Origin: Dhillonvirus LF50P3 | Sequence record: OZ035753.1 | Strand: one strand, 5' to 3' | Length of the DNA: 45,099 bases | In this document: positions 3,498-40,379 of the stretch, in pieces | Layout of the letters: the number at the start of each line of letters is the position of its first letter | How positions within the stretch are numbered: the stretch's first letter is position 1 | Notes under the pieces: generated by a model | The model's input: the letters and a program-made list of their open reading frames with translations, nothing else | Database searches by the model: none | Told to the model about the DNA's origin: nothing | Position numbers and translations under genes: made by a program

Positions 3498-4584
3498 TCA
3501 ACATTTGGCGGATCGAATGATTCGCCGTCACATCTTCACCCAGCGCCTGAGCAATGACCAGGCGCGGAGGGTGCTGGCTATGTGGGAGAAGTTCAGACCC
3601 TCGTTACTTGGTAAGCTGACCGAGTTGCTTGATGGCAAAAAATCCATGAATAACAGGGCACTTTCCACGCTGTTAACGCAACTCGACAAGACCGTTAAAG
3701 CAGAATTGCGCACCGAGTTTAAGGCGTTGGCTGAAAGCCTTCAGGAGTTTGCCGACACCGAGGCTGATTATCTTGCCGATACATTAACGGCAGCGATCCA
3801 GCCCGCGGTCGCCGTACCGGCTGTCGAGGTGGTGGGTGTTGTGACCGGCGCGCAGATCGCAGCGACGGCAATGAAAAACCCGTTCCAGGGAAACACCATG
3901 ATGCAGTGGCCTGATTCACTTTCCGAGTGGACCCGGACGCAGATCGGCAATCAGGTGCGCGCGGGATTCATCCAGGGCAAGCCGACTATGGAAATTATTG
4001 CGGACGTGAGGCGCGCGCTAGGCGGTCGTAGTGCGCAAGCAATCTCAAGCGTTGTTAAGTCCGCGGTCAACCACTATGCGGCGACCGCCCGCGAATTAAT
4101 GGTAAAAGCTAATGACGATATTCTCGAAGGACGCCAATGGTTGGCTACATTGGACACGCATACTTCTCCCATGTGCCAGCTACGCGATCGCCTGTTTTAT
4201 CCAGTTGATGTTACTCCCGACACAAAAGGGAAGCGCGGCGGGAAAATGGTGGCGGGATCACAATATGGCGCTGGTCCGGGCAAGCTACATTATTGCTGCC
4301 GGTCTACGGAGACGTGGAAAGTCAAAGGCATGGAAGATTGGCCCAGTGGTAAGCGTCCGGCACTGAAGGCTGACGCGGGTCGATTGCTTAGTGAGCAGGT
4401 CGACGCGCAGACTGATTTCTTCTCCTGGGTGCAGCGCCAGCCTCGCCATATTCTGGAGGAATTATATGGGGTGCAGCGCGCCGATCAGATTATGCGCGGC
4501 GTGAAAGTGCCGAAGATGTTCACCGATACTGGCGAACTAATGACTATTGCACAGCTTAAAAACCGGGGGTTATGGCGTGATTAA
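3481..4584 (+). CDS. minor head protein, Mu F-like / SPP1 gp7-like head morphogenesis protein
   Basis: 367-aa ORF overlapping the portal stop; contains the characteristic segment WLATLDTHTSPMCQLRDRLFYP of the phage Mu F head-morphogenesis family. Confidence 0.7.
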   Translation: MAKTINQHLADRMIRRHIFTQRLSNDQARRVLAMWEKFRPSLLGKLTELLDGKKSMNNRALSTLLTQLDKTVKAELRTEFKALAESLQEFADTEADYLADTLTAAIQPAVAVPAVEVVGVVTGAQIAATAMKNPFQGNTMMQWPDSLSEWTRTQIGNQVRAGFIQGKPTMEIIADVRRALGGRSAQAISSVVKSAVNHYAATARELMVKANDDILEGRQWLATLDTHTSPMCQLRDRLFYPVDVTPDTKGKRGGKMVAGSQYGAGPGKLHYCCRSTETWKVKGMEDWPSGKRPALKADAGRLLSEQVDAQTDFFSWVQRQPRHILEELYGVQRADQIMRGVKVPKMFTDTGELMTIAQLKNRGLWRD

Positions 4585-10741: not shown

Positions 10742-11104
10742 ATGGCTAAAGCACCACTCTTCACACTTGACCCTAAGCCAACCTTTAAGCTGCAGATTGA
10801 GATCCCGCGCCCTGGCGAGAACGAACCGGGCAAGATGACGTTTACCGTACGCCACCGCCCGATCGACGAGTTTTCGCAGACCATGCAGGACACCGAACGC
10901 AAGCTGTCGGAATATGACGACAATGACCCGGACGGCTTTAACGTTATGGTCGAGGCCATCATGCACGTCGCAGAAGGCTGGAATCTGCCGGACGAATTTA
11001 ACGCGGAGAACGTCCGCCGCCTGGTGGTCAACTATCCACGCGCGTTCGGTGTGTTCCACACGTCGTACTATCTCGAACTGATGGGATTGCGTGAAAAAAA
11101 CTAA
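10742..11104 (+). CDS. tail assembly chaperone (lambda G-like)
   Basis: 120-aa ORF starting MAKAPLFT at 10742 (the listed 10691 start runs through the terminator); ends at a slippery heptamer; sits between major tail and tape measure genes. Confidence 0.6.
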   Translation: MAKAPLFTLDPKPTFKLQIEIPRPGENEPGKMTFTVRHRPIDEFSQTMQDTERKLSEYDDNDPDGFNVMVEAIMHVAEGWNLPDEFNAENVRRLVVNYPRAFGVFHTSYYLELMGLREKN

Positions 11105-11418
11105 TTGAGGCGGCGCGACGCTTTTATGGCCCGCCGCCACCCTCTGAAGATTTAGCCGCAAGTTTATGGGGCGCGGCCCCCGAAGATGTTTGTCCTCCTG
11201 TTGCACTATGGCCCGACAACGCGAAGATAGTCGCAGTCTTCACAGATTGCGCCACGCAATGGCGCACCGGATTTGGTGGCGCATACGGCATCGACTACGG
11301 CGTGCTGGAGTGGTTATTTAAGATGCACGGTATCGAAAACGAGCAGCGCGCGTTTAAAGATATCAAGCTAATGGAACGCATCGCGCTTGATGAAATGGCG
11401 CAGCAGAACCCAGCATAA
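10742..11418 (+). CDS. tail assembly chaperone G-T fusion made by -1 programmed frameshift
   Basis: Slippery heptamer A_AAA_AAC at 11095–11101 in the zero frame, 1 nt before the G stop; the -1 frame is open for about 105 further codons (KLIEAARRFYGPPPPSEDL...EMAQQNPA) to TAA 11416–11418 and has no start codon of its own near its 5' end. Confidence 0.55.
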
Positions 11419-11422
11419 TGAA

Positions 11423-11737
11423 GCGGGACAAGCGGGACGTCCCGTTTTGTCCCGCCCCTGTGAAACTGCATACCTACTCACTCTCATTGCATAATCTAAA
11501 AGCGGGACAAGCGGGACGTCCCGTTTTGTCCCACCCCACAAAAGTGCATACGTATTCGGTTTTCGTGCATAAAACAAACGGGACAGAAAGCGGGACAAAC
11601 AAGAGGCGGGACAAAGCGGGACAGCACCCCGTCCCCGCCAGTGCTGCCGCGGTTTTCAGCCGATCGGGACAGGCGGGACAACCCCCAGTCTTTCAGACTA
11701 GACGGGGGTCAATGGCCCCCTCGTCTGAGACTGAATA
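11423..11737. repeat. CGGGAC(A) motif array with two 33-bp hairpin-palindromes and a long stem-loop (copy 1)
   Basis: Near-palindromic units GCGGGACAAGCGGGACGTCCCGTTTTGTCCC(G/A)C at 11423–11455 and 11502–11534; four direct CGGGACA sites at 11579–11623; two more at 11665–11680; imperfect long hairpin 11686–11733. The 11576–11737 part recurs at 40063–40219. Confidence 0.7.
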
Positions 11738-11801
11738 AGGTTTGTTTTGAAATCGCTGATACAATATCCATCGGCAACTGCATAAAAAAGGGGACTGCAT
11801 A

Positions 11802-14444
11802 ATGGCAGATCAGGCAGCAGGCATCACGCTAAAGGCTGATGTTGCACAAATCAGAACGGCAAATACTGTGCTGGACTCCTTCGCACAGAAATCCGAGAAC
11901 ACAGAAAACAAGGTTAAGAAATTAAACGACACCCTCGGCAAATCCAAAAAGGTGACGAGTGACGCCGCGGGCGGAATGGAAAAGCTGGCAAACGAATCGC
12001 AGCGCGCCGCCGATGGCATGACTAAACAGGAGCGACTCGCCAACAGGTTAGGGATGTCGACTAAAAACCTGGGCTTTGCCTCGCGTAACGCCGCATTCCA
12101 GCTACAGGATATTGCGGTAACGCTTGAGATGGGGATGCCGGTTCACCGCGTCATGCTTCAGCAGTTACCGCAGCTAACTGGGGCGTTCGGTGGACTGGGT
12201 AACACGCTGCGTTATGTTGCGGGCTTCCTCGGCCCAGTAGGGATCGGCCTCGCCGCCGTAACGGCAACGTTAGGCGTGGGCGTGGCAATTACGTCCCGCG
12301 CAGAGAACCAGGTCGCCGCGCTTAACAAGACGCTGGCGCTGTCAGGTAACATTTCCGGCCTCACTGCAAACCAGATCCTGGTGTTATCCGAGAACGCCGA
12401 GCGCATGGGCGGATCATTCCGCAAGACGCGTGACACAATCCAGGCGCTGGCGGCGGCGGGTGTGAAAGCGGGTGGTGACTTCGGCGCATTGGCTAAGGTA
12501 GTTAATGACTTTGCGAAGGTGTCCAGCCAGCCGATCGAGGATGTGGTAGCGGCGGTGGCGAAGCTGTCAACCGACCCCGTTGGCGGACTGCGTGCGCTGG
12601 CGGATAAGTATCACGTCGTAAACGAAGCGCAGATCCAGCAGGTGCAGTCACTAGTGACGGCTGGTCGCGAAACCGAAGCGGTGGCGCTGGCTAACAAAAC
12701 AGCCGCAGCGTCGTTTACCACTATGACCAATGAGATCAAGTCCAACATGGGTACGCTTGAGCGGTCGATGAACGCCATCACCTCGGCAGCTAAATCTATG
12801 TGGGATGCCATCCTGGATGTTGGACGCGCGCAGTCATCGAATGAGTCCGAGATGAAAGCGCGTGAGTCATTGCAGCGGCTGACCACGGCTTACTATGCCG
12901 AGATGAAAGCGGTAAACGCTGCCGGTGGGGTGATGACTGAAGCGCAAAAAGCGCGTATTAATATGCTTTACAGCGAACTGGTAGCGCAGGAGAAGGTGGT
13001 GGCGTCGCTCACCCTGCGCAACCGAGCCGAGCGAGACAACGCAAGTGCCGCTGACGAAGCAGCAAAGGCGAACGAAGAGGCAAACCGCACCGCCCGCGAC
13101 CGCGCCGCGTTTGAGAAGGAGTACGCAACCAACGCGAAGAGGCGCGCCGACGAGATCGCCCGCCTCAATTTGCTTAATAAGCGCGGCGTGATTGACGAGA
13201 AAGAGCTTGCCGAGGCGGTGAAGCAGGTAAACGAGCGTTACAAAGACCCCGCCCCGAAGAAGGCCGCCGCTGTTCGAGTCGATGCCGGGCTGAAAATGCT
13301 GGAGGTCGCACGGAGCGAACTGGCACAGCTTCGAGAATCAGGCAAGCAGATCGAGGCCAACTCTTCGACGCAGACCCGCACGCAACGAGCGCAAGCGGCC
13401 CTTAACAAGCTGATTGCCGACAACGAGCAGTTAATCGCTGCGAGCAAAGAAAGGGCACTGACGGCAGCAGAGAAGCAGCAATTAGTCGAGTTCGGGCGCG
13501 TGAAGGAAGTCCGCGAGCAGATCGTCGAAGAAGCCAAATTGCTGGACGCGAAAGAGAAGCAGGTCAAGGCGCACGCGCAGATCGACGCCTTCGTTAAGAA
13601 CCAGAACGCCGAGCTAAAAGCCACCGCGGCGGGCTATGCGCTTTCCACTCGCGAAGCGGCTAACCTTCGCGAAGAATTGCAGCTAATTGATCGCCTGAAG
13701 CGGGTGGGCGCTAACGATACTGATATTGATCTGGCGGTATCTAAGCTGCGCGAAGTGCAGGAAGCACAGACCGGTGCTAACGCCTCGCTATGGGACGGCT
13801 TCAGCCGCGGGCTTAAGGATAGCGTGGATGAAATGGGTAACGGATATACGCAGATGGCGTCACTCACAAAATTCACGTTCGGCGCTATGCAGGACACGAT
13901 GAACGAGTTTTTCGAGACTGGCAAGCTGAACGCAAAGGATATGGTTAAGTCCATCCTGAGCGAATTAATCAAGCTGGCTACATCGCAGGCATTCAAGTCC
14001 ATCGTTAGCGCTTTCGGTGGCGACGGCGGCAAAAACGGATTGTTCGGCGCTATCTTCTCGGGCCTCACTAAGAATGCGGACGGCGGAGCGTACGCAGGGG
14101 GCAATCTCGCGGCCTATTCGGGGAAAGTGGTAAGCCAGCCTACCTTTTTCAGTTATGGCGTCCAGGCGTTCGCTAAGGGCGCAGGATTGATGGGTGAGGC
14201 CGGACCCGAAGCCATCATGCCACTGAAGCGCGGCCCGGACGGCAAACTTGGAGTCGCCGCTGCCGGTGTAGGCGGAGGGATGATTGTGACGACCAACGTT
14301 AACATGGGGACCGGTAAGACGGATACCAGTGTTAGCGGACCAGACCCGCGCACCGCGCAGGCGTTCGGAAAGCAAATCACCGAAGCGGTGAAGGCCGAGA
14401 TCGTGAAAGCGACGAAACCGGGTGGTGTACTTTACAAACGATGA
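11802..14444 (+). CDS. tail tape measure protein
   Basis: 880-aa, largely alpha-helical, Ala/Gln/Glu/Lys-rich ORF with hydrophobic and Gly-rich segments; downstream of G/G-T and upstream of the tail-tip genes. Confidence 0.85.
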   Translation: MADQAAGITLKADVAQIRTANTVLDSFAQKSENTENKVKKLNDTLGKSKKVTSDAAGGMEKLANESQRAADGMTKQERLANRLGMSTKNLGFASRNAAFQLQDIAVTLEMGMPVHRVMLQQLPQLTGAFGGLGNTLRYVAGFLGPVGIGLAAVTATLGVGVAITSRAENQVAALNKTLALSGNISGLTANQILVLSENAERMGGSFRKTRDTIQALAAAGVKAGGDFGALAKVVNDFAKVSSQPIEDVVAAVAKLSTDPVGGLRALADKYHVVNEAQIQQVQSLVTAGRETEAVALANKTAAASFTTMTNEIKSNMGTLERSMNAITSAAKSMWDAILDVGRAQSSNESEMKARESLQRLTTAYYAEMKAVNAAGGVMTEAQKARINMLYSELVAQEKVVASLTLRNRAERDNASAADEAAKANEEANRTARDRAAFEKEYATNAKRRADEIARLNLLNKRGVIDEKELAEAVKQVNERYKDPAPKKAAAVRVDAGLKMLEVARSELAQLRESGKQIEANSSTQTRTQRAQAALNKLIADNEQLIAASKERALTAAEKQQLVEFGRVKEVREQIVEEAKLLDAKEKQVKAHAQIDAFVKNQNAELKATAAGYALSTREAANLREELQLIDRLKRVGANDTDIDLAVSKLREVQEAQTGANASLWDGFSRGLKDSVDEMGNGYTQMASLTKFTFGAMQDTMNEFFETGKLNAKDMVKSILSELIKLATSQAFKSIVSAFGGDGGKNGLFGAIFSGLTKNADGGAYAGGNLAAYSGKVVSQPTFFSYGVQAFAKGAGLMGEAGPEAIMPLKRGPDGKLGVAAAGVGGGMIVTTNVNMGTGKTDTSVSGPDPRTAQAFGKQITEAVKAEIVKATKPGGVLYKR

Positions 14445-27299: not shown

Positions 27300-27623
27300 T
27301 TACGAATAAAAATTTGGGTCGCGTGCAACGTCTACCAGATACAGATTGCAGATTCGGTTGCCGTAGTGGCCTGGTGTTCGCTGGCGGCACACAACGGCGT
27401 AGCCTGGAGGAATTGTATTGCCGGTCGCGATAATCCACGCCACGCGTGCGCCCGATAGAGTTTTGCCGTTGCATTCGATGCGCGTGCCGCCATCTGCAGT
27501 GTTAAGGTTGCCGATTTTGCAGCCGGTGGACTTCAGACGAATGACGCCGGTTTTGCTGTCGTAGGTGAATAGCTGGTTAGTCATTGCGACCGAAAAGTCG
27601 ATGGCTTCGAATGTCGTATTCAT
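27300..27623 (-). CDS. HNH-like endonuclease, possibly degenerate
   Basis: 107-aa ORF whose layout (YDSKTGVIRLK...GKTLSGARVAWIIATG...GNRICNLYLV) resembles small phage HNH homing-endonuclease-like proteins, but the canonical His-Asn-His residues are not clearly present. Confidence 0.45.
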   Translation of the reverse strand: MNTTFEAIDFSVAMTNQLFTYDSKTGVIRLKSTGCKIGNLNTADGGTRIECNGKTLSGARVAWIIATGNTIPPGYAVVCRQRTPGHYGNRICNLYLVDVARDPNFYS

Positions 27624-28330
27624 TTTAAATTTTCCTCGTTAACCGCTATCGCGAAGCCGCGCGGAGTGAGCGACCGGATTAATTTTGTGCGGGCTGATTT
27701 GCCTCCGAGGCGACTATACTGCTTCGAGTACCCTTTTTCAACGAAAACGGGTTTCTTCTCTGGCATACGGAAGCCGTTGCCGGTCCATAAGCAGGTCAGC
27801 TTCGGATATGAATCGCGGGCGTTGATGTATTCCGGGAAGAGCGGGTGTACGTCATCCTCCGGCAGATATCCCCCATACTCCCACGGGTCGAATGAGTGAT
27901 CCGGTTTGCGCCACTGGGTGGATAGCACACTGCGCGGATTCTCAATCATATATGGCACTTCGAAGAAGTCACCCAGGTAAGCGGCGATCTTCGCGGTGCG
28001 CACCGCCTTAAGCTGAAAGGCTGGGTCTTTTGCACGCTTGCGCGGGAAAGCTGGCGCACCGCTCACTGCCAGATCCGTGCACGGAGGAAACGCATAGATG
28101 ATATCTGGCGTACCGAAATCGCCATTCATCGCACGGTCTACAAAGTCCAGATCGATAAACTCATTGCGATACCGGATTCCGCGACCATAAATCCGGTAGT
28201 CAAGGTAAGACCCGTGATCGGCTTCGGAGTAGTTGAAGCAATAACACTTATGCCCCATCTCAGCCGCACGCTCAATCATCAAGCCGCTGCCGTCAAACAA
28301 CGACCAGATTGTCATTTTAGCAATAGTCAT
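27620..28330 (-). CDS. C5-cytosine DNA methyltransferase-like protein (compact)
   Basis: 236-aa ORF with motif I-like SLFDGSG, motif IV-like AFPPCTDLAVSG (catalytic Cys, Thr in place of the usual Gln) and motif VI-like MIENPRS; shorter than typical C5 methyltransferases. Confidence 0.5.
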   Translation of the reverse strand: MTIAKMTIWSLFDGSGLMIERAAEMGHKCYCFNYSEADHGSYLDYRIYGRGIRYRNEFIDLDFVDRAMNGDFGTPDIIYAFPPCTDLAVSGAPAFPRKRAKDPAFQLKAVRTAKIAAYLGDFFEVPYMIENPRSVLSTQWRKPDHSFDPWEYGGYLPEDDVHPLFPEYINARDSYPKLTCLWTGNGFRMPEKKPVFVEKGYSKQYSRLGGKSARTKLIRSLTPRGFAIAVNEENLK

Positions 28331-37297: not shown

Positions 37298-37627
37298 ATG
37301 AATGTAAACGACGCAATCGAAATGTTAACGAAGACTGTTTGCAGTGAGACAAGCCGGTCATGGGCATATACCGATGCCGTGGGGGCTGTGTTATTTGAAA
37401 TCGAACGACTGCGGCTTACCGAAAAAGAATTGCGCGCCAGGCTGGAACTACTCAACGGTACAGCAGCAAGCAAGCTGCAAAAACACAATGAAGAAATGGA
37501 AGAATACAAAAAGCAGGTTATCCGTTTGCGCGCCGAGGGCAAATCTTGGGCGATGATTGCCGAGTTGACCGGAATTAATCAGAGCACAGTGCGCTCCTGG
37601 GTACGCAATAATAAAACTTCTAAGTAA
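37298..37627 (+). CDS. small helix-turn-helix DNA-binding protein (putative transcriptional regulator)
   Basis: 109-aa ORF; coiled-coil-like middle and C-terminal HTH-like segment KSWAMIAELTGINQSTVRSWVRN; first gene of the right-hand plus-strand block. Confidence 0.6.
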   Translation: MNVNDAIEMLTKTVCSETSRSWAYTDAVGAVLFEIERLRLTEKELRARLELLNGTAASKLQKHNEEMEEYKKQVIRLRAEGKSWAMIAELTGINQSTVRSWVRNNKTSK

Positions 37628-37637
37628 GGCCACGGCA

Positions 37638-39902
37638 ATGAGCTTGATTAAATTCGCTATAACAAAACCCGCTAAAAAAGGCGAAAAAGCCAGGGCGGAA
37701 AACTTCCAGATGACGACCGATGAGTTTTTCGAATTTATCAAAGATGCGAAAGAAATCTCCTCGGTGCATATCAACAAGACGGAAGATAAAGCCGAGTATG
37801 CGCGCCGCAAGCGTAAGGCCGATGGCATCGTGGCGTATACCAGTGACGGATTGCGTCGTAAGACCAGTGCGGTGGACCGCTCGATCCTGTTCTTTGATAT
37901 TGACCGCACCGACACCCGCACCCTGCGCCGCTGCCGTAAGGCGTTCATCGACGCGGGACTGGAGCACGTCTTCCACACCACTACCGGCGACCGCCACCCG
38001 CTGAAAGGCGGCACGCGTTGCGCTCGTTTCCTGGTGCTCACTGACAAGCCTGTACCGGCGGAAGACCTGGGCCGCGTCCAGTATGCACTATTACACCAAC
38101 TGGGCCTGTCAGATGTGGACTTCGACGATTGCACGAAAGACACAAACCGCCTTATGTACCTGCCTCACCAGCAATCGGTTGTTAAGTGTCACTACGGCAA
38201 ACGCGCCCGCGTCCGTCGTCTTCTTCGCCTGGCTGATAAGCTGGGAGTGGAAAAAGAGGAAGTACGCCGCGAACTAACCCAGGGCGATGACGGCGTGGCG
38301 GACGGTATTCTGGATTGGTGCTTCCAGGCGGGATTCGAACCGCTGTCGTCCGGTCGTGGTTATGAAGTGCCGTGCCCTAACGAACACCTGCATAGCGGCG
38401 AAGGGTCAACCGCTATCATGGTTAAGGATGGCGAGATCCGTTTCAAGTGTATGCACACCGGCAACGAGTGTTGCTCGGAACTGAATAGACACCAGCACCT
38501 GGCGCTACGTCTTATCGGGATCCCGGACCACCTGAACGTCGAACCGCACAACATGTCACGTAAGCAAATCGCCGCCATCCTTCCGGGACTGGACGATGAG
38601 GAAGTGGAATCGTGCTACGAACATATCGTTGATGCGGTCGGAGACGGCGACGAGTACGGCGTATGTACAGATGCAGACCTGGACAACGAGCCGGTTGCTC
38701 TGTTCAGTAAGCACGACCCGATCATCGAGGGGCTGATTAACTTCAAATCGACCTGGTATCTGGCTGGCGAGTCGAACATCGGTAAATCGTTCTACGTGCT
38801 GGGCCAGATGGCGTCAGTATCTGCCGGTATTCCGTTCGGCGGCGCGAAGGTCGTCCAGTCTCATTGCTTCTATTTCGACGCGGAAGGTGGCGAAGCCTCC
38901 AACCAGCGTAAGGAGGCATTGCAGATTAAATATGAGCACGACCTGGACAAGCTGCACATTATCGATCTGCAATCACGCGGCTGGGATATCACCAGCAAAT
39001 CCGGCTTGCGTGAAGTTATCAGCTTCATCAACCGCACCGCTAACGGCGAGCCGGTTGGCCTGGTGGCGTTCGACTCACTCAACCAGACTGTTGCGCTGCG
39101 GTCCGCCGATGCAAAACCGTTCGACGAGAACAACGCCAGCGATATGGGCGAAGTGGTCAAAGCGCTGAAGGCCATTGCGGAAAATACAGGCGGCAGTGCG
39201 GGCGTCATCCACCACCCGGCGAAAGGTGCAAACGGCAGCAGATCCCCCCGCGGGTCCGGCGCGCTGCATGGTGCTGTTGATTCTGCGTTCTTCCTGGAGC
39301 AACCGGACGACAACCAGCCAGGCCAATTGAACCTGTATCACGAAAAGGCACGTAACGGCATCAAGCAAGCGCCGCGCGGCTTCGTCCTGCTCAAGTGCAA
39401 GGTTAAGGTGGATCTCCGCAAGTCCGAAGCGTTCGAAGCCCACCAGTCCACCAGCGCCGGGCCAGACTTCGGCGATGTGGTTGCCGGTTGGGACGTCAAG
39501 CCGATTGCATCCACGCCACGCGACGAGACTCTGTACCTCGTACCGGTCGCCCTGGCACCGTTCGCTATTGAACAGGCGAAGGCTGCGGGCAAAGCAGCAG
39601 TTAAGGAAGAGAACGCCGCAGGGCCGCGCAACGAAAAAGAGAAAGTGCTTTATGCAGCACTGGAAAAACTGATGGAAGATAACCCGGACCATACCGGATT
39701 CAGCAAATCGGCAATTGTCCGCCAGGCTGGGCTTGCGAAAGGTGGCACATCTACGAAGGCAATAGACGATATGGTCGAGCGCGGCGTGCTTGGGTTTTAC
39801 ACAGACCCACACACCGGGGCCATCTATGGGTCGTCTAATATCGTCATCAAAACGAACATACCCATCACGCTTTCGGCTACCGATGACGACCTGAAAGATT
39901 AA
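37638..39902 (+). CDS. DNA primase/helicase fusion
   Basis: 754-aa ORF: N-terminal primase-like region with acidic cluster LFFDIDRTD, a Cys/His cluster (CPNEHLH...CMHTGNECC) and a C-terminal RecA/DnaB-like ATPase with Walker A GESNIGKS and Walker B-like LVAFDSL. Confidence 0.8.
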   Translation: MSLIKFAITKPAKKGEKARAENFQMTTDEFFEFIKDAKEISSVHINKTEDKAEYARRKRKADGIVAYTSDGLRRKTSAVDRSILFFDIDRTDTRTLRRCRKAFIDAGLEHVFHTTTGDRHPLKGGTRCARFLVLTDKPVPAEDLGRVQYALLHQLGLSDVDFDDCTKDTNRLMYLPHQQSVVKCHYGKRARVRRLLRLADKLGVEKEEVRRELTQGDDGVADGILDWCFQAGFEPLSSGRGYEVPCPNEHLHSGEGSTAIMVKDGEIRFKCMHTGNECCSELNRHQHLALRLIGIPDHLNVEPHNMSRKQIAAILPGLDDEEVESCYEHIVDAVGDGDEYGVCTDADLDNEPVALFSKHDPIIEGLINFKSTWYLAGESNIGKSFYVLGQMASVSAGIPFGGAKVVQSHCFYFDAEGGEASNQRKEALQIKYEHDLDKLHIIDLQSRGWDITSKSGLREVISFINRTANGEPVGLVAFDSLNQTVALRSADAKPFDENNASDMGEVVKALKAIAENTGGSAGVIHHPAKGANGSRSPRGSGALHGAVDSAFFLEQPDDNQPGQLNLYHEKARNGIKQAPRGFVLLKCKVKVDLRKSEAFEAHQSTSAGPDFGDVVAGWDVKPIASTPRDETLYLVPVALAPFAIEQAKAAGKAAVKEENAAGPRNEKEKVLYAALEKLMEDNPDHTGFSKSAIVRQAGLAKGGTSTKAIDDMVERGVLGFYTDPHTGAIYGSSNIVIKTNIPITLSATDDDLKD

Positions 39903-39977: not shown

Positions 39978-40062
39978 ATTTTGAGTGTTTTTATCAGGTC
40001 GTATTGGTTGCCGTGTAGTGTGAATATAGTGAATAGTTATGCAGTTTTGTTGCATAAAGTAA

Positions 40063-40219
40063 GCGGGACAGAAAGCGGGACAAACAAGGGGCGGGACAAA
40101 GCGGGACAGCACCCCCGTCCCGCCCCGGATGGCGCGGCCTGGAGAGGAGCGGGACAGGCGGGACAACCCCCAGTCTTTCAGACTAGACGGGGGTCAATGG
40201 CCCCCCTCGTCTGAGACTG
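40063..40219. repeat. CGGGAC(A) motif array and long stem-loop (copy 2)
   Basis: GCGGGACA at 40063, 40075, 40091, 40101, 40149 and 40158, then the hairpin CAGTCTTTCAGACTAGACGGGGGTCAATGGCCCCCCTCGTCTGAGACTG (40171–40219); near-identical to 11576–11737. Confidence 0.7.
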
Positions 40220-40379
40220 AATAAAATCCGGGGATTGCAAAACACACGGCAGCATGATGCGAAGTTCGGTCGTCGACGAACTAGGCAACCAATGCGGGTC
40301 GCATTATGCCGAGTGAAAAATGCAGTTTGCAGCCACAGCGGATAGCGATCAACTTTTTCATGCGCGTGATTAACATTGG

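What the first reader, a model, noticed from the sequence alone, without database searches (positions are those of the whole stretch)
11423..11737. CGGGAC(A) motif array with conserved long stem-loop, present twice, one copy inside the tail operon
Seen directly: the 8-mer GCGGGACA (or CGGGAC) occurs about 14 times in 315 bp between the G-T chaperone stop and the tape measure start, in both orientations. Two 33-bp near-palindromes (11423–11455, 11502–11534) each hold four half-sites and could form hairpins or cruciforms. Four direct copies at irregular 10–16 bp spacing follow, then a 48-nt imperfect stem-loop. The segment 11576–11737 recurs almost base-for-base at 40063–40219. Such density and two-orientation arrangement point to a protein-binding array (iteron-like origin, regulator site or partition-like site) rather than coding sequence. 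A copy inside a morphogenesis operon is unusual.
Basis: partly seen in the sequence, partly recalled or inferred. Interest (0 to 1): 0.75.

Follow-up and report, generated by a model that had tools for sequence, protein, structure and literature searches.

The report
Second replication-origin-like array in tail operon
The GCGGGACA array between the tail chaperone and tape measure genes is non-coding and is most likely a duplicate replication-origin module, read by the winged-helix tail of the phage's own helicase-primase; this origin type has not been annotated in these phages.

Summary
CGGGAC occurs 13 times in 315 bp where 0.16 are expected, and the 3' unit recurs at 40028-40224 (86.9% identity), directly 3' of the replicative helicase-primase gene.

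The window is a Dhillonvirus coliphage, and about 150 relatives keep both copies. In relatives, including Guernseyvirinae, the same architecture follows the helicase-primase gene: AT-rich box, direct and inverted 8-mers, spacer, more 8-mers, long stem-loop, ACGGCARC box. The 8-mer differs between lineages (about 13 words). Each word goes with its own signature at the start of the recognition helix of a C-terminal winged helix in the helicase-primase. That domain is swapped as a cassette together with the array.

The protein is an AEP-type primase, a RepA-like helicase and a winged helix. The AT-rich segments beside the arrays are among the least stable DNA in the genome.

Best reading: an iteron origin of the self-loading initiator-helicase kind (SaPI Rep, P4 alpha, pRN1 and RSF1010 are analogues). 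The tail-operon copy is a Dhillonvirus-specific second origin or origin enhancer. Binding and initiation are inferred, not shown.

The parts
11423..11455 (+). Palindrome 1: two direct and two inverted 8-mer sites (GCGGGACA AGCGGGAC / GTCCCG TTTT GTCCCGC)
   Evidence: Folds as a single strand with z -4.8. Sites are conserved in relatives.
11456..11501 (+). AT-rich segment 1 with TGCATA / TTGCATAAT boxes; candidate unwinding element
   Evidence: 39% GC against 54.7% for the genome. Contains the least stable 30-mer of the locus (99.1st percentile genome-wide).
11502..11534 (+). Palindrome 2: two direct and two inverted 8-mer sites (the last is degenerate, GTCCCAC)
11535..11577 (+). AT-rich segment 2 (GTGCATA-N15-GTGCATAAAA), homologous to the GTGAATAGTTATGCA box of copy 2 and of relatives
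   Evidence: 39.5% GC. Aligns with 40028-40062. The box is conserved across Dhillonvirus and Guernseyvirinae modules.
11578..11623 (+). Four direct 8-mers, spaced 12, 16 and 10 bp
   Evidence: The spacing pattern is the same in copy 2 and in L030.
11624..11663 (+). GC-rich spacer with a degenerate inverted site (CGTCCCC, 11629-11635)
   Evidence: 72.5% GC. The most divergent part between the two copies.
11664..11680 (+). Two direct 8-mers immediately 5' of the stem-loop
   Evidence: Present in all lineages.
11686..11733 (.). Long imperfect palindrome or stem-loop (short inverted repeat, G5/C5 hairpin, short inverted repeat)
   Evidence: z -2.6 on + and -2.5 on -. The arms are invariant and the apical loop variable within the genus. 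The architecture is kept with different sequence in other lineages. Paired change between the two copies of contig ...050407.
11734..11801 (+). 3' flank: TGAATAA, extended -10-like TGaTACAAT (11757-11765), CGGCAAC box (11771-11778; exact ACGGCAAC in many relatives), Shine-Dalgarno sequence before the TMP start at 11802
   Evidence: The promoter reading is by eye only and was not called by the scan.
40020..40062 (+). Copy 2: AT-rich box GTGAATATAGTGAATAGTTATGCAGTTTTGTTGCATAAAGTAA
   Evidence: 27.9% GC. Least stable 30-mer at the 99.8th percentile.
40063..40165 (+). Copy 2: four direct 8-mers, one inverted (40116-40123) in a GC-rich spacer, then two direct
40171..40219 (.). Copy 2: stem-loop, near-identical to 11686-11733
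   Evidence: (z -3.7)
40246..40253 (+). ACGGCAGC box 3' of the stem-loop; conserved in all lineages. The word is also scattered about once per kb across the genome.
37638..39902 (+). Helicase-primase: AEP/PrimPol-fold primase (about aa 1-200), Cys/His zinc module, RepA-like AAA_25 helicase (aa 357-531), C-terminal winged helix
39744..39782 (+). Recognition helix H3 of the winged helix (aa 703-715, GTSTKAIDDMVER); its first residues form the signature that covaries with the 8-mer

Best explanation
The array is a set of binding sites (iterons) for the C-terminal winged-helix domain of the phage's own helicase-primase, and the whole module is a replication origin.

Proposed steps:
1. Helicase-primase protomers dock by their winged helices on the direct and inverted GCGGGACA sites that flank the AT-rich segments.
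2. Oligomerisation melts the AT-rich DNA.
3. The RepA-like helicase domain loads itself onto the single strand.
4. The adjacent long palindrome is exposed or extruded as a hairpin. It serves as the start signal for the RepB'-like AEP primase domain, with the conserved ACGGCARC box just beyond it.

The ancestral module lies directly 3' of the helicase-primase gene (copy 2, 40020-40253). The Dhillonvirus clade carries a second, larger module in the gap between the tail chaperone and the tape measure gene (the finding). It acts either as a second origin or as a distant cis-acting partner of the first, like crr of P4.

Shown here: the array, its conservation, its non-coding nature, the fold and position of the domain, the covariation, the cassette swapping, and the low duplex stability beside the arrays.

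Inferred: actual binding, melting, priming at the hairpin, and any initiation at either locus.
For: 1. Same architecture, different word. About 13 different 8-mers occupy the same layout 3' of the helicase-primase gene in Dhillon-like and Guernseyvirinae phages.

2. Covariation. Each word goes with its own signature at the N-terminal end of helix 3 of the C-terminal domain. Unrelated members that share a word share the signature; CGGACAA goes with GGGNxRRR in AH01, phiEap-2, L100, L101, L103 and L104.

3. Out-of-sample test. Of ten new signatures, nine came with a new word in the same layout. The class-G signature, closest to class C, predicted AGGGAT-type sites, and these were then found displaced by inserted genes.

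4. Natural swaps. AH01 and L039 are 95-100% identical over about 650 aa, then 44-62% over the last 120 aa. Nucleotide identity resumes right after the stem-loop. One cluster of 81 proteins with at least 90% identical bodies carries 5 C-terminal domain types.

7. The AT-rich segments beside the arrays are at the 99.1st and 99.8th percentile of duplex instability.

8. The tail copy is under selection. It is present in about 152 of 158 records and in a lineage with 74% major-tail identity. Sites are conserved while spacers drift.

9. Precedent. SaPI Rep reads iterons immediately 3' of rep with a C-terminal winged helix around an AT-rich centre (PMC9371898). pRN1 ORF904 (primase, helicase, winged helix) needs a stem-loop 3' of its gene whose structure is conserved and whose sequence is not (PMC4234260).
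Against: - No experimental or marker-frequency data exist. GC skew follows gene strand only and is uninformative.
- Covariation of adjacent segments could partly reflect physical linkage. The repeated breakpoint at the domain boundary argues against this but does not exclude it.
- In copy 2 of this phage the 8-mers lie on only one side of the AT-rich box, unlike SaPI origins.
- The spacers between site clusters are GC-rich in this phage.
- Two class-G contigs (L309, L312) show no array within +-10 kb, and L137 has none next to the gene.
- The stem-loop has several alternative registers and modest z-scores (-2.2 to -4.3). Paired changes would also arise from a twofold-symmetric protein site.
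- An origin inside a late operon would face head-on or co-directional transcription.
Confidence: 0.66

Rival explanations
1. The module works mainly on transcription. The arrays are binding sites, for the helicase-primase tail or another factor, that form a roadblock, terminator or insulator at operon boundaries. At copy 1 they would tune the ratio of tail tube and chaperone to tape measure and distal tail proteins. At copy 2 they would separate the early replication genes from the downstream genes.
For: - Both copies are co-oriented with the flanking genes.
- Each lies at the end of one gene block and is followed by promoter-like sequence (TGaTACAAT at 11757-11765; strong sigma-70 promoters follow the module in Guernseyvirinae).
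- In class-G phages, canonical terminators occupy the position just 3' of the helicase-primase gene.
- In relatives the chaperone-TMP gap carries a terminator and inserted genes.
Against: - The stem-loops lack a U-tract and are not called as terminators on the + strand.
- A winged helix fused to a primase-helicase has no obvious reason to serve as a transcription factor.
- This reading does not explain the AT-rich, minimally stable DNA flanked by sites or the conserved ACGGCARC box.
- It is compatible with, and could coexist with, an origin function.
Confidence: 0.14
2. The module is transcribed into a structured non-coding RNA or 3' UTR. Its repeated 8-mers and hairpins would bind or titrate an RNA-binding protein, or stabilise the mRNA.
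For: - All direct repeats are on the sense strand at both loci.
- Hairpins are predicted.
- Structure is kept with changed sequence across lineages.
Against: - No Rfam family matches, even at permissive thresholds.
- Both strands fold equally well.
- The covarying partner is a winged-helix domain that matches double-stranded-DNA binders.
- Inverted copies and palindromes are as expected for DNA sites.
- No dedicated promoter was called.
Confidence: 0.05
3. The arrays are operators for the small HTH protein encoded at 37298-37627.
For: The HTH gene sits just upstream of the helicase-primase gene in all lineages.
Against: - The HTH recognition region is invariant in Dhillon-like lineages with four different 8-mers.
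- AH01 and L039 XRE proteins are 71/72 identical although their 8-mers differ.
- The HTH type co-occurs with the conserved TTGGTTGC motif, which appears 22 times in the window.
Confidence: 0.03
4. The arrays are packaging (pac/cos) or partition-type sites, read by the small terminase or a ParB-like protein.
For: Clusters of short repeats in both orientations, with an IHF-like box in some lineages, resemble cosB or pac and centromere sites.
Against: - The covariation and the cassette boundary are with the helicase-primase tail, not with the terminase.
- The module is 5 kb or more from terS.
- No ParA or ParB was seen among the proteins scanned.
- These are virulent phages.
Confidence: 0.04
5. 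ORF 11418-11738 (106 aa), annotated as 'hypothetical protein' in several records, is a real gene and the repeats are coding.
For: An ATG-initiated ORF spans the array exactly. Small ORFs are annotated here in some records.
Against: - One-nucleotide indels are frequent among close relatives.
- The annotated ORFs differ from record to record.
- The copy-2 sequence is homologous but lies in a different ORF context.
Confidence: 0.01

Closest known systems
SaPI Rep / PriRep origins (Staphylococcus pathogenicity islands; PMC9371898)
   Same: An initiator-helicase with a C-terminal winged helix recognises short repeats placed immediately 3' of its own gene. Sites lie in both orientations around an AT-rich region. 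Specificity is element-specific. In SaPI5 the primase is fused to the helicase. No separate loader is needed.
   Different: SaPI Reps are AAA+ (SF3 or MCM-like) helicases, whereas this one is a RecA-type RepA-like (AAA_25) helicase. The iterons here are 8-mers rather than 5-6-mers. There is an additional long stem-loop, a conserved AT box and an ACGGCARC box. A second module lies 16-28 kb away in the tail operon. This is a virulent phage, not a satellite.
pRN1 ORF904 and related phage proteins (prim/pol, SF3 helicase, winged helix; PMC4234260, PMC2777425)
   Same: Three-function polypeptide with an AEP-type primase at the N-terminus and a winged helix at the C-terminus. The essential cis element is a long stem-loop 3' of the gene whose structure, not sequence, is conserved.
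   Different: No iterons were found in pRN1. The helicase class differs. The host domain differs.
IncQ plasmid RSF1010 oriV with RepA, RepB' and RepC (from my own knowledge of Scherzinger et al. and Geibel et al. 2009; fold and sequence matches)
   Different: The three functions are separate proteins in RSF1010 and are fused here. RSF1010 iterons are 20-22 bp in 3.5 copies. The sequence similarity is marginal (E 0.11).
Satellite phage P4 ori and crr with the alpha protein (domain organisation in PMC2777425; ori/crr details from my own knowledge of Flensburg and Calendar 1987 and Ziegelin et al. 1993)
   Same: An octamer iteron in direct and inverted copies at two separate loci of one genome. 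Both are bound by the C-terminal winged helix of a primase-helicase.
   Different: P4 alpha is a DnaG-type primase plus SF3 helicase. P4's two sites are 4.5 kb apart, and neither lies in a morphogenesis operon. Whether both sites are required here is unknown.

Membership tests
Iteron origin read by a self-loading initiator-helicase (SaPI Rep / P4 alpha / pRN1 ORF904 kind) | The replication helicase carries a C-terminal winged-helix DNA-binding domain | tested here: met
Iteron origin read by a self-loading initiator-helicase (SaPI Rep / P4 alpha / pRN1 ORF904 kind) | Short repeats immediately 3' of the initiator gene | tested here: met
   Met for copy 2, which starts 118 bp after the stop codon, and for nearly all relatives. 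The copy named in the finding (11423-11737) is NOT adjacent to the gene. It is a distant duplicate.
Iteron origin read by a self-loading initiator-helicase (SaPI Rep / P4 alpha / pRN1 ORF904 kind) | Repeats in opposite orientation on both sides of an AT-rich, easily melted region | tested here: met
   Met in copy 1: palindrome 1, AT segment 1, palindrome 2, AT segment 2, four direct sites. Only partly met in copy 2, where the sites lie on one side of the AT box. Met in Guernseyvirinae, where 1-2 sites lie 5' of the box.
Iteron origin read by a self-loading initiator-helicase (SaPI Rep / P4 alpha / pRN1 ORF904 kind) | Specificity match between the DNA-binding domain and the repeat sequence | tested here: met
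   About 14 signature classes go with about 13 words. There are natural cassette swaps, and an out-of-sample test gave 9 of 10.
Iteron origin read by a self-loading initiator-helicase (SaPI Rep / P4 alpha / pRN1 ORF904 kind) | Demonstrated binding, melting and replication initiation at the site | not testable with these tools
   No experimental data were found for Dhillonvirus or Guernseyvirinae. GC skew is uninformative.
Iteron origin read by a self-loading initiator-helicase (SaPI Rep / P4 alpha / pRN1 ORF904 kind) | Helicase of the SF3 / AAA+ class | tested here: not met
   The central domain is AAA_25, a RecA-type RepA-like domain (E 1.3e-20). The only PDB helicase hit is RepA 1g8y. This is therefore a functional analogue, not a homologue, of the SF3 proteins.
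IncQ RSF1010-type replicon (RepA / RepB' / RepC with oriV) | RepA-like helicase and RepB'-like AEP primase | tested here: met
IncQ RSF1010-type replicon (RepA / RepB' / RepC with oriV) | 3.5 copies of 20-22 bp iterons bound by a separate RepC | tested here: not met
   The repeats are 8-mers present in 7-14 copies, and the reader domain is fused to the helicase.
IncQ RSF1010-type replicon (RepA / RepB' / RepC with oriV) | Hairpin ssi sites used by the primase | tested here: inconclusive
   A long palindrome is present in every lineage and folds on both strands. No sequence similarity to ssiA or ssiB was tested, and priming cannot be assessed.
P4-type two-site origin (ori plus crr) | The same octamer iteron clustered at two distant loci of one genome | tested here: met
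   Also seen in the divergent contig ...050407.
P4-type two-site origin (ori plus crr) | Both loci required in cis for replication | not testable with these tools
   Needs deletion genetics.
Intrinsic (Rho-independent) terminator | GC-rich hairpin followed directly by a U-tract on the transcribed strand | tested here: not met
   No + strand terminator was called at either module. The tail after the stem is GAAUAAGG or GAAUAAAA.
Known structured RNA family (Rfam 15) | Covariance-model match at or near the gathering score | tested here: not met
   No hit at gathering thresholds. In the permissive search, only miRNA hairpin models scored, at about 20 bits against thresholds of 77-90.
Protein-coding gene (ORF 11418-11738) | Reading frame preserved among relatives | tested here: not met
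   Multiple 1-nt indels among 16 close relatives. Annotation is inconsistent.

The most novel reading that the evidence does not exclude
The helicase-primase, its swappable winged helix and the module form a self-contained 'replicon identity' cassette with three layers of DNA recognition:
- a lineage-specific 8-mer read by the swappable tail;
- a structure-specific palindrome;
- the invariant 8-mer ACGGCARC, read by the conserved body of the enzyme. This word marks the origin and, at about one copy per kb, serves as a genome-wide priming or helicase signal.

In Dhillonviruses the two arrays would cooperate over 16-28 kb, by P4 ori/crr-like looping or as dual origins. One of them would be placed in the tail operon so that replication initiation is coupled to late transcription.
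Probability: 0.15. Interest if true: 0.8.

Novelty: new variant of a known kind. Interest (0 to 1): 0.6.

Why it matters
Dhillonvirus and Guernseyvirinae phages are among the most commonly isolated coliphages and Salmonella phages, and they are used in therapy cocktails and in model collections such as BASEL. Their origins of replication are not annotated, and I found no description of them in the searchable literature.

If the reading is right:
- It gives the cis element and the specificity determinant of their replication, so a testable origin and a way to build compatible or incompatible replicons and engineering vectors.
- It shows that origin specificity is exchanged between phages as a compact cassette (winged helix, iterons and stem-loop) with at least 13 specificities. 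That suggests selection for replicon privacy during co-infection, or escape from elements that target or hijack the origin.
- It documents a second origin-like module kept inside a morphogenesis operon for the whole history of a genus.
- It flags a 10-13-fold over-represented 8-mer (ACGGCARC), shared by all these phages, that may be a new replication signal.

Tried and rejected
- Rfam at gathering and permissive thresholds, and tRNA/tmRNA search: nothing.
- Consensus promoter and terminator scans: nothing convincing on the + strand at either module. The - strand 'terminators' called are just the 8-mer palindromes.
- Coding reading of ORF 11418-11738: rejected because of indels.
- HTH protein as binder: rejected by covariation.
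- Pfam on the C-terminal 128 aa and the N-terminal 341 aa, and a PDB sequence search with the single protein: no hits. Structure prediction was needed.
- GC skew: follows gene orientation only.
- Literature searches for the motif and for origins in Dhillonvirus or Guernseyvirinae: nothing relevant. One search failed on a term that was too short.
- Search for complete genomes of Dhillon-like lineages with other 8-mers, to test concerted change of the tail copy: none in the phage collection. One viral-contig scan used too loose a pattern and returned chance hits. Two metagenome scans and the last viral scan found nothing new.
- Class-G cultured relative: none.
- A single conserved secondary structure for the stem-loop across lineages could not be fixed. 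The short inverted repeats allow several registers, so I did not build a covariance model.
- MITE or mobile-element reading: the unit occurs only at these two loci and only once in Guernseyvirinae genomes.
Full report
**What is there.** The window is a Dhillonvirus-type (HK578-like) virulent coliphage. A 401-bp query around the finding matches 158 phage records at 80-97% identity, 152 of them over most of its length.

The finding lies in a 383-bp gap in the tail operon. Upstream is the stop (11418) of the DUF1799 frameshift extension of the Phage_TAC_4 tail chaperone. Downstream is the start (11802) of the tape measure gene.

CGGGAC occurs 13 times in 11423-11737 and 7 times in 40063-40219, against 22 times in the remaining 44.6 kb. 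The expectation for 315 bp is 0.155, and no other 315-bp window has more than two.

The anatomy of the tail-operon module is:
- palindrome 1 (two direct and two inverted sites);
- an AT-rich segment;
- palindrome 2;
- a second AT-rich segment;
- four direct sites spaced 12, 16 and 10 bp;
- a GC-rich spacer with a degenerate inverted site;
- two direct sites;
- a 48-nt imperfect palindrome;
- a short flank with an extended -10-like TGaTACAAT and a CGGCAAC box before the tape measure start.

The unit 11543-11738 aligns with 40028-40224 at 86.9% identity. The flanks are near-identical and the roughly 40-nt spacer is divergent.

**It is not a gene and not a known RNA.** The 106-aa ORF 11418-11738 spans the array, and parts of it are annotated as hypothetical proteins in some records. 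Those annotations disagree with one another. An alignment of 16 close relatives shows repeated single-base indels, conserved 8-mers, drifting spacers, invariant stem arms and a variable apical loop. Rfam finds nothing at curated thresholds and only chance miRNA-hairpin scores in a permissive search. ARAGORN finds nothing. The consensus scan calls no + strand promoter or terminator in either module.

**The second copy gives the context.** Copy 2 begins 118 bp after the stop codon of a 754-aa protein (37638-39902). This protein matches PHROG 3228 'replicative helicase-primase' over its full length and Pfam AAA_25 (RepA-like, RecA-type helicase) at residues 357-531.

I fetched relatives through the C-terminal half of this protein. 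All Dhillonvirus-type loci, including one whose helicase-primase is 69% identical, have the same CGGGAC layout at that position. More distant relatives are Guernseyvirinae: Pantoea phage AH01, Enterobacter phage phiEap-2, Hafnia phage TS33, Salmonella FSL SP-031 and metagenomic contigs. They have the same architecture at the same position but built from a different 8-mer.

The shared plan, from the stop codon onward, is:
- one or two 8-mers;
- an AT-rich box (GTGAATAGTTATGCA, often twice);
- three or four direct 8-mers;
- one or two inverted 8-mers;
- a spacer that in several lineages carries a perfect IHF consensus;
- two or three direct 8-mers;
- a long GC-rich imperfect palindrome, whose apical loop often holds another inverted 8-mer;
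- an ACACGGCARCA box;
- the promoter of the next operon.

Whole Guernseyvirinae genomes contain only this one array. The helicase-locus module is therefore ancestral, and the tail-operon copy is an addition in the Dhillonvirus clade.

**Which protein reads the 8-mer.** Four lines of evidence point to the last ~120 residues of the helicase-primase.

1. Natural swap. AH01 and contig L039 have helicase-primases that are 95-100% identical over about 650 residues. Identity then drops to 44-62% in the last ~120 residues. Their 8-mers (CGGACAA and TCCGACAG) and stem-loops differ, and nucleotide identity resumes immediately after the stem-loop. The exchanged cassette is therefore the C-terminal domain, the array and the stem-loop.

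2. Matched classes. Across all loci, each 8-mer class has its own signature in one short segment of that domain:

| 8-mer | Signature | Members |
|---|---|---|
| CGGACAA | GGGNxRRR | six loci from three hosts, whose domains are otherwise only about 50-60% identical |
| CCGACAR | DGGRRRPA | L039, L113, L115 |
| AGGGATA | AGG[NG]RRPA | L040, TS33 |
| GGGGATRA | KGGGRYAA | L042 |
| GGGGGAGA | KGGDRYKI | L102, L106 |
| GCGGGACA | KGGT[SN]T[KT]A | window, L030 |

3. Out-of-sample test. I classified the C-terminal domains of 119 homologues and fetched DNA for ten signatures not yet seen. Nine had an array in the same layout with a new word: TGTGGCAA, TGTGCCAA, GGTGCCA, ACTCGCAA, TCGCAA, TCCGCACA, GGGGATC, AGGGACAA and AGGGAT(G/C). 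One had a terminator and a reverse gene instead.

   A group that seemed to lack an array ('class G') has a signature closest to the AGGGATA class. In three of its contigs, a reduced array of AGGGATAA, TATCCCT and GGGATGA sites, a stem-loop and an ACGGCARC box were then found 1.3-1.6 kb downstream, displaced by inserted reverse-strand genes. Two class-G contigs remain without a detected array.

4. Repeated cassette exchange. One cluster of 81 proteins whose bodies are at least 90% identical carries five C-terminal domain types, 41-55% identical to each other. Three of these are already matched to three different 8-mers.

Its recognition region is invariant in Dhillon-like lineages with four different 8-mers. 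The XRE-type equivalents of AH01 and L039 are 71/72 identical. It co-occurs with the separate conserved motif TTGGTTGC.

The protein is thus a fusion of a RepB'-like primase, a RepA-like helicase and a sequence-reading winged helix.

**Origin-like properties of the DNA.** The AT-rich segments beside the arrays have 39%, 39.5% and 27.9% GC in a 54.7% GC genome. They contain the least stable 30-mers of each locus, at the 99.1st and 99.8th percentile genome-wide.

In the tail-operon copy these segments are flanked on both sides by sites in both orientations. That is the arrangement described for SaPI origins (PMC9371898).

The terminal palindromes fold better than shuffled controls on either strand (z -2.2 to -4.3). 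Their sequence changes between lineages while the plan is kept. Within one divergent genome, the two copies differ by a paired change, AGAC...GTCT to GGAC...GTCC. This is compatible with hairpin extrusion. It is also compatible with a twofold-symmetric protein site, so I do not treat it as proof of a hairpin.

**The tail-operon copy.** It is present in essentially all Dhillonvirus records, and most IMG/VR Dhillonvirus contigs have two exact copies of the stem-loop arm.

It is also present in contig ...050407, a lineage with only 74% major-tail and 69% helicase-primase identity. There it sits after an inserted reverse-strand gene and three TTGGTTGC motifs. It uses the same GCGGGACA word as that phage's helicase-locus array, and it carries the GAATAGTTATGCA box and a TGATTTATAAGG box.

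Conserved sites with drifting spacers indicate that the sites themselves are under selection.

I could not test the sharpest prediction, that in lineages with another 8-mer the tail copy has changed in step, because no complete genomes of those lineages were retrievable. There is one hint. Two of their contigs end inside the helicase-locus array, and one contig (27.6 kb) has about the length of the interval between the two modules. That is what an assembler does at a repeated sequence.

**Mechanism proposed.**

Shown here:
- an array of sites;
- a covarying, swappable winged helix on the replication enzyme;
- adjacent minimally stable DNA;
- a conserved palindrome and a conserved ACGGCARC box.

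Inferred:
1. Helicase-primase protomers bind the 8-mers through their winged helices and assemble.
2. They melt the AT-rich DNA and load their own RepA-like helicase ring.
3. The palindrome, once single-stranded, acts as an ssi-like start signal for the AEP primase domain.

Dhillonviruses would then have two origins, or an origin and a distant cis partner as in P4 ori/crr.

My confidence that the arrays are binding sites of the helicase-primase tail is about 0.8. My confidence that the module is a replication origin is about 0.66. My confidence that the tail copy itself fires as an origin, rather than acting as an enhancer or regulatory site, is about 0.5.

**Rivals.**
- A mainly transcriptional role (boundary, roadblock or attenuator between operon segments) is the most serious rival. 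Both modules sit at gene-block ends and are followed by promoter-like sequence, and class-G phages have plain terminators right after the gene. However, the stem-loops lack U-tracts, and this reading does not explain the enzyme-borne reader domain or the unstable DNA. It could coexist with origin function.
- A structured-RNA role, HTH operators, packaging or partition sites, and coding sequence are each contradicted by specific tests listed above.

**Comparison with known systems.** The closest functional analogues are:
- SaPI Rep/PriRep origins, where a C-terminal winged helix reads iterons immediately 3' of rep around an AT-rich centre (PMC9371898);
- pRN1 ORF904 and related phage proteins, which combine prim/pol, helicase and winged helix and need a structure-conserved stem-loop 3' of the gene (PMC4234260, PMC2777425);
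- P4 alpha with ori and crr, an octamer iteron at two loci. The domain organisation is in PMC2777425. The site details are from my own knowledge.

In enzyme ancestry the nearest is the RSF1010 RepA/RepB' pair.

It is not a member of the SF3-helicase families, because the helicase domain is RecA-type. It is not an IncQ origin either, because its sites are 8-mers and its reader domain is fused to the helicase. I file it as a new variant of the known kind 'iteron origin read by a self-loading initiator-helicase'.

I found no description of this element or of any origin for Dhillonvirus or Guernseyvirinae in the searchable literature.

**Verdict.** Two corrections apply: the binder is the helicase-primase tail, and the ancestral copy is the one beside that gene.

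The kind of system is known. These points appear to be undescribed and are directly testable:
- this particular enzyme-origin combination;
- its cassette-wise diversification into at least 13 specificities across two phage groups;
- the maintained second module inside the tail operon;
- the associated genome-wide ACGGCARC signal.

Noticed in passing
whole window (51 sites; e.g. 1459, 2281, 40246); also L095, L096, L097, L098: The octamer ACGGCARC is 10-13-fold over-represented: 51 copies in the window against about 4.6-4.9 expected, and 42-59 in Pantoea AH01, Hafnia TS33, phiEap-2 and Oekolampad. It occurs about once per kb, mostly on the + strand in + gene blocks, in two reading frames and in intergenic DNA. 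One copy follows the stem-loop of every module. It may be a priming or helicase signal of the conserved part of the helicase-primase. A Chi-like role is not excluded.
   Followed up: partly
window 5820/5833, 25602/25614, 27274/27291, 34059/34075, 43662/43685, and 39915, 39969, 40004, 40285(-), 40376, 40407 around copy 2: TTGGTTGC occurs 22 times against 2 expected, mostly as pairs in intergenic regions. It is conserved in all Dhillon-like lineages together with the invariant HTH_23/sigma70-r4-like protein (37298-37627). It is replaced by ATGTTGGCTG in several Guernseyvirinae (TS33, phiEap-2, L042), which have an XRE-type HTH instead. It is probably the operator or promoter motif of that regulator.
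   Followed up: partly
L304 4080-4443 (- strand) and L306 4073-4641 (- strand): In relatives, the gap between the tail chaperone and the tape measure gene holds inserted reverse-strand genes preceded by a terminator. This junction is a tolerated insertion site (moron hot spot) in this phage group.
   Followed up: no
L314 12855-12900: The ACGGCAGCA box 3' of the module is expanded into a tandem repeat, (GGCAGCAT) x6, in one class-G contig.
   Followed up: no
L040 about 3805-3825, L096 about 10965-10985, L140 (module spacer), L314 about 12672-12690: The spacer between the two 8-mer clusters carries a match to the IHF consensus WATCAANNNNTTR in several Guernseyvirinae modules (AATCAATAGCTTA, AATCAATAACTTA). 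The box TGATTTATAAGG occurs at the same place in other lineages. The window's own spacers are GC-rich and lack it.
   Followed up: no
L132 (contig end at 12370), L134 (contig end at 5151), L029/L043: Several metagenomic contigs end inside the helicase-locus array. The 27.6-kb L132 contig is about as long as the interval between the two modules. This suggests that assemblies break at the duplicated module.
   Followed up: no
one search hit H27, MG065648.1: A record named 'Campylobacter phage A144' (host Campylobacter jejuni, 35 kb, unannotated) is 92% identical to this coliphage element over its full length. It is probably a mislabelled or contaminant Dhillonvirus sequence.
   Followed up: no
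window 27620-28330 (-) and the homologue of Oekolampad bas18_0032: The phage encodes a Dcm-like C5-cytosine methyltransferase and a Dam-like N6-adenine methyltransferase (PHROG 757 and the Oekolampad annotation). I did not examine whether the GC-rich 8-mers or ACGGCARC overlap their target sites.
   Followed up: no
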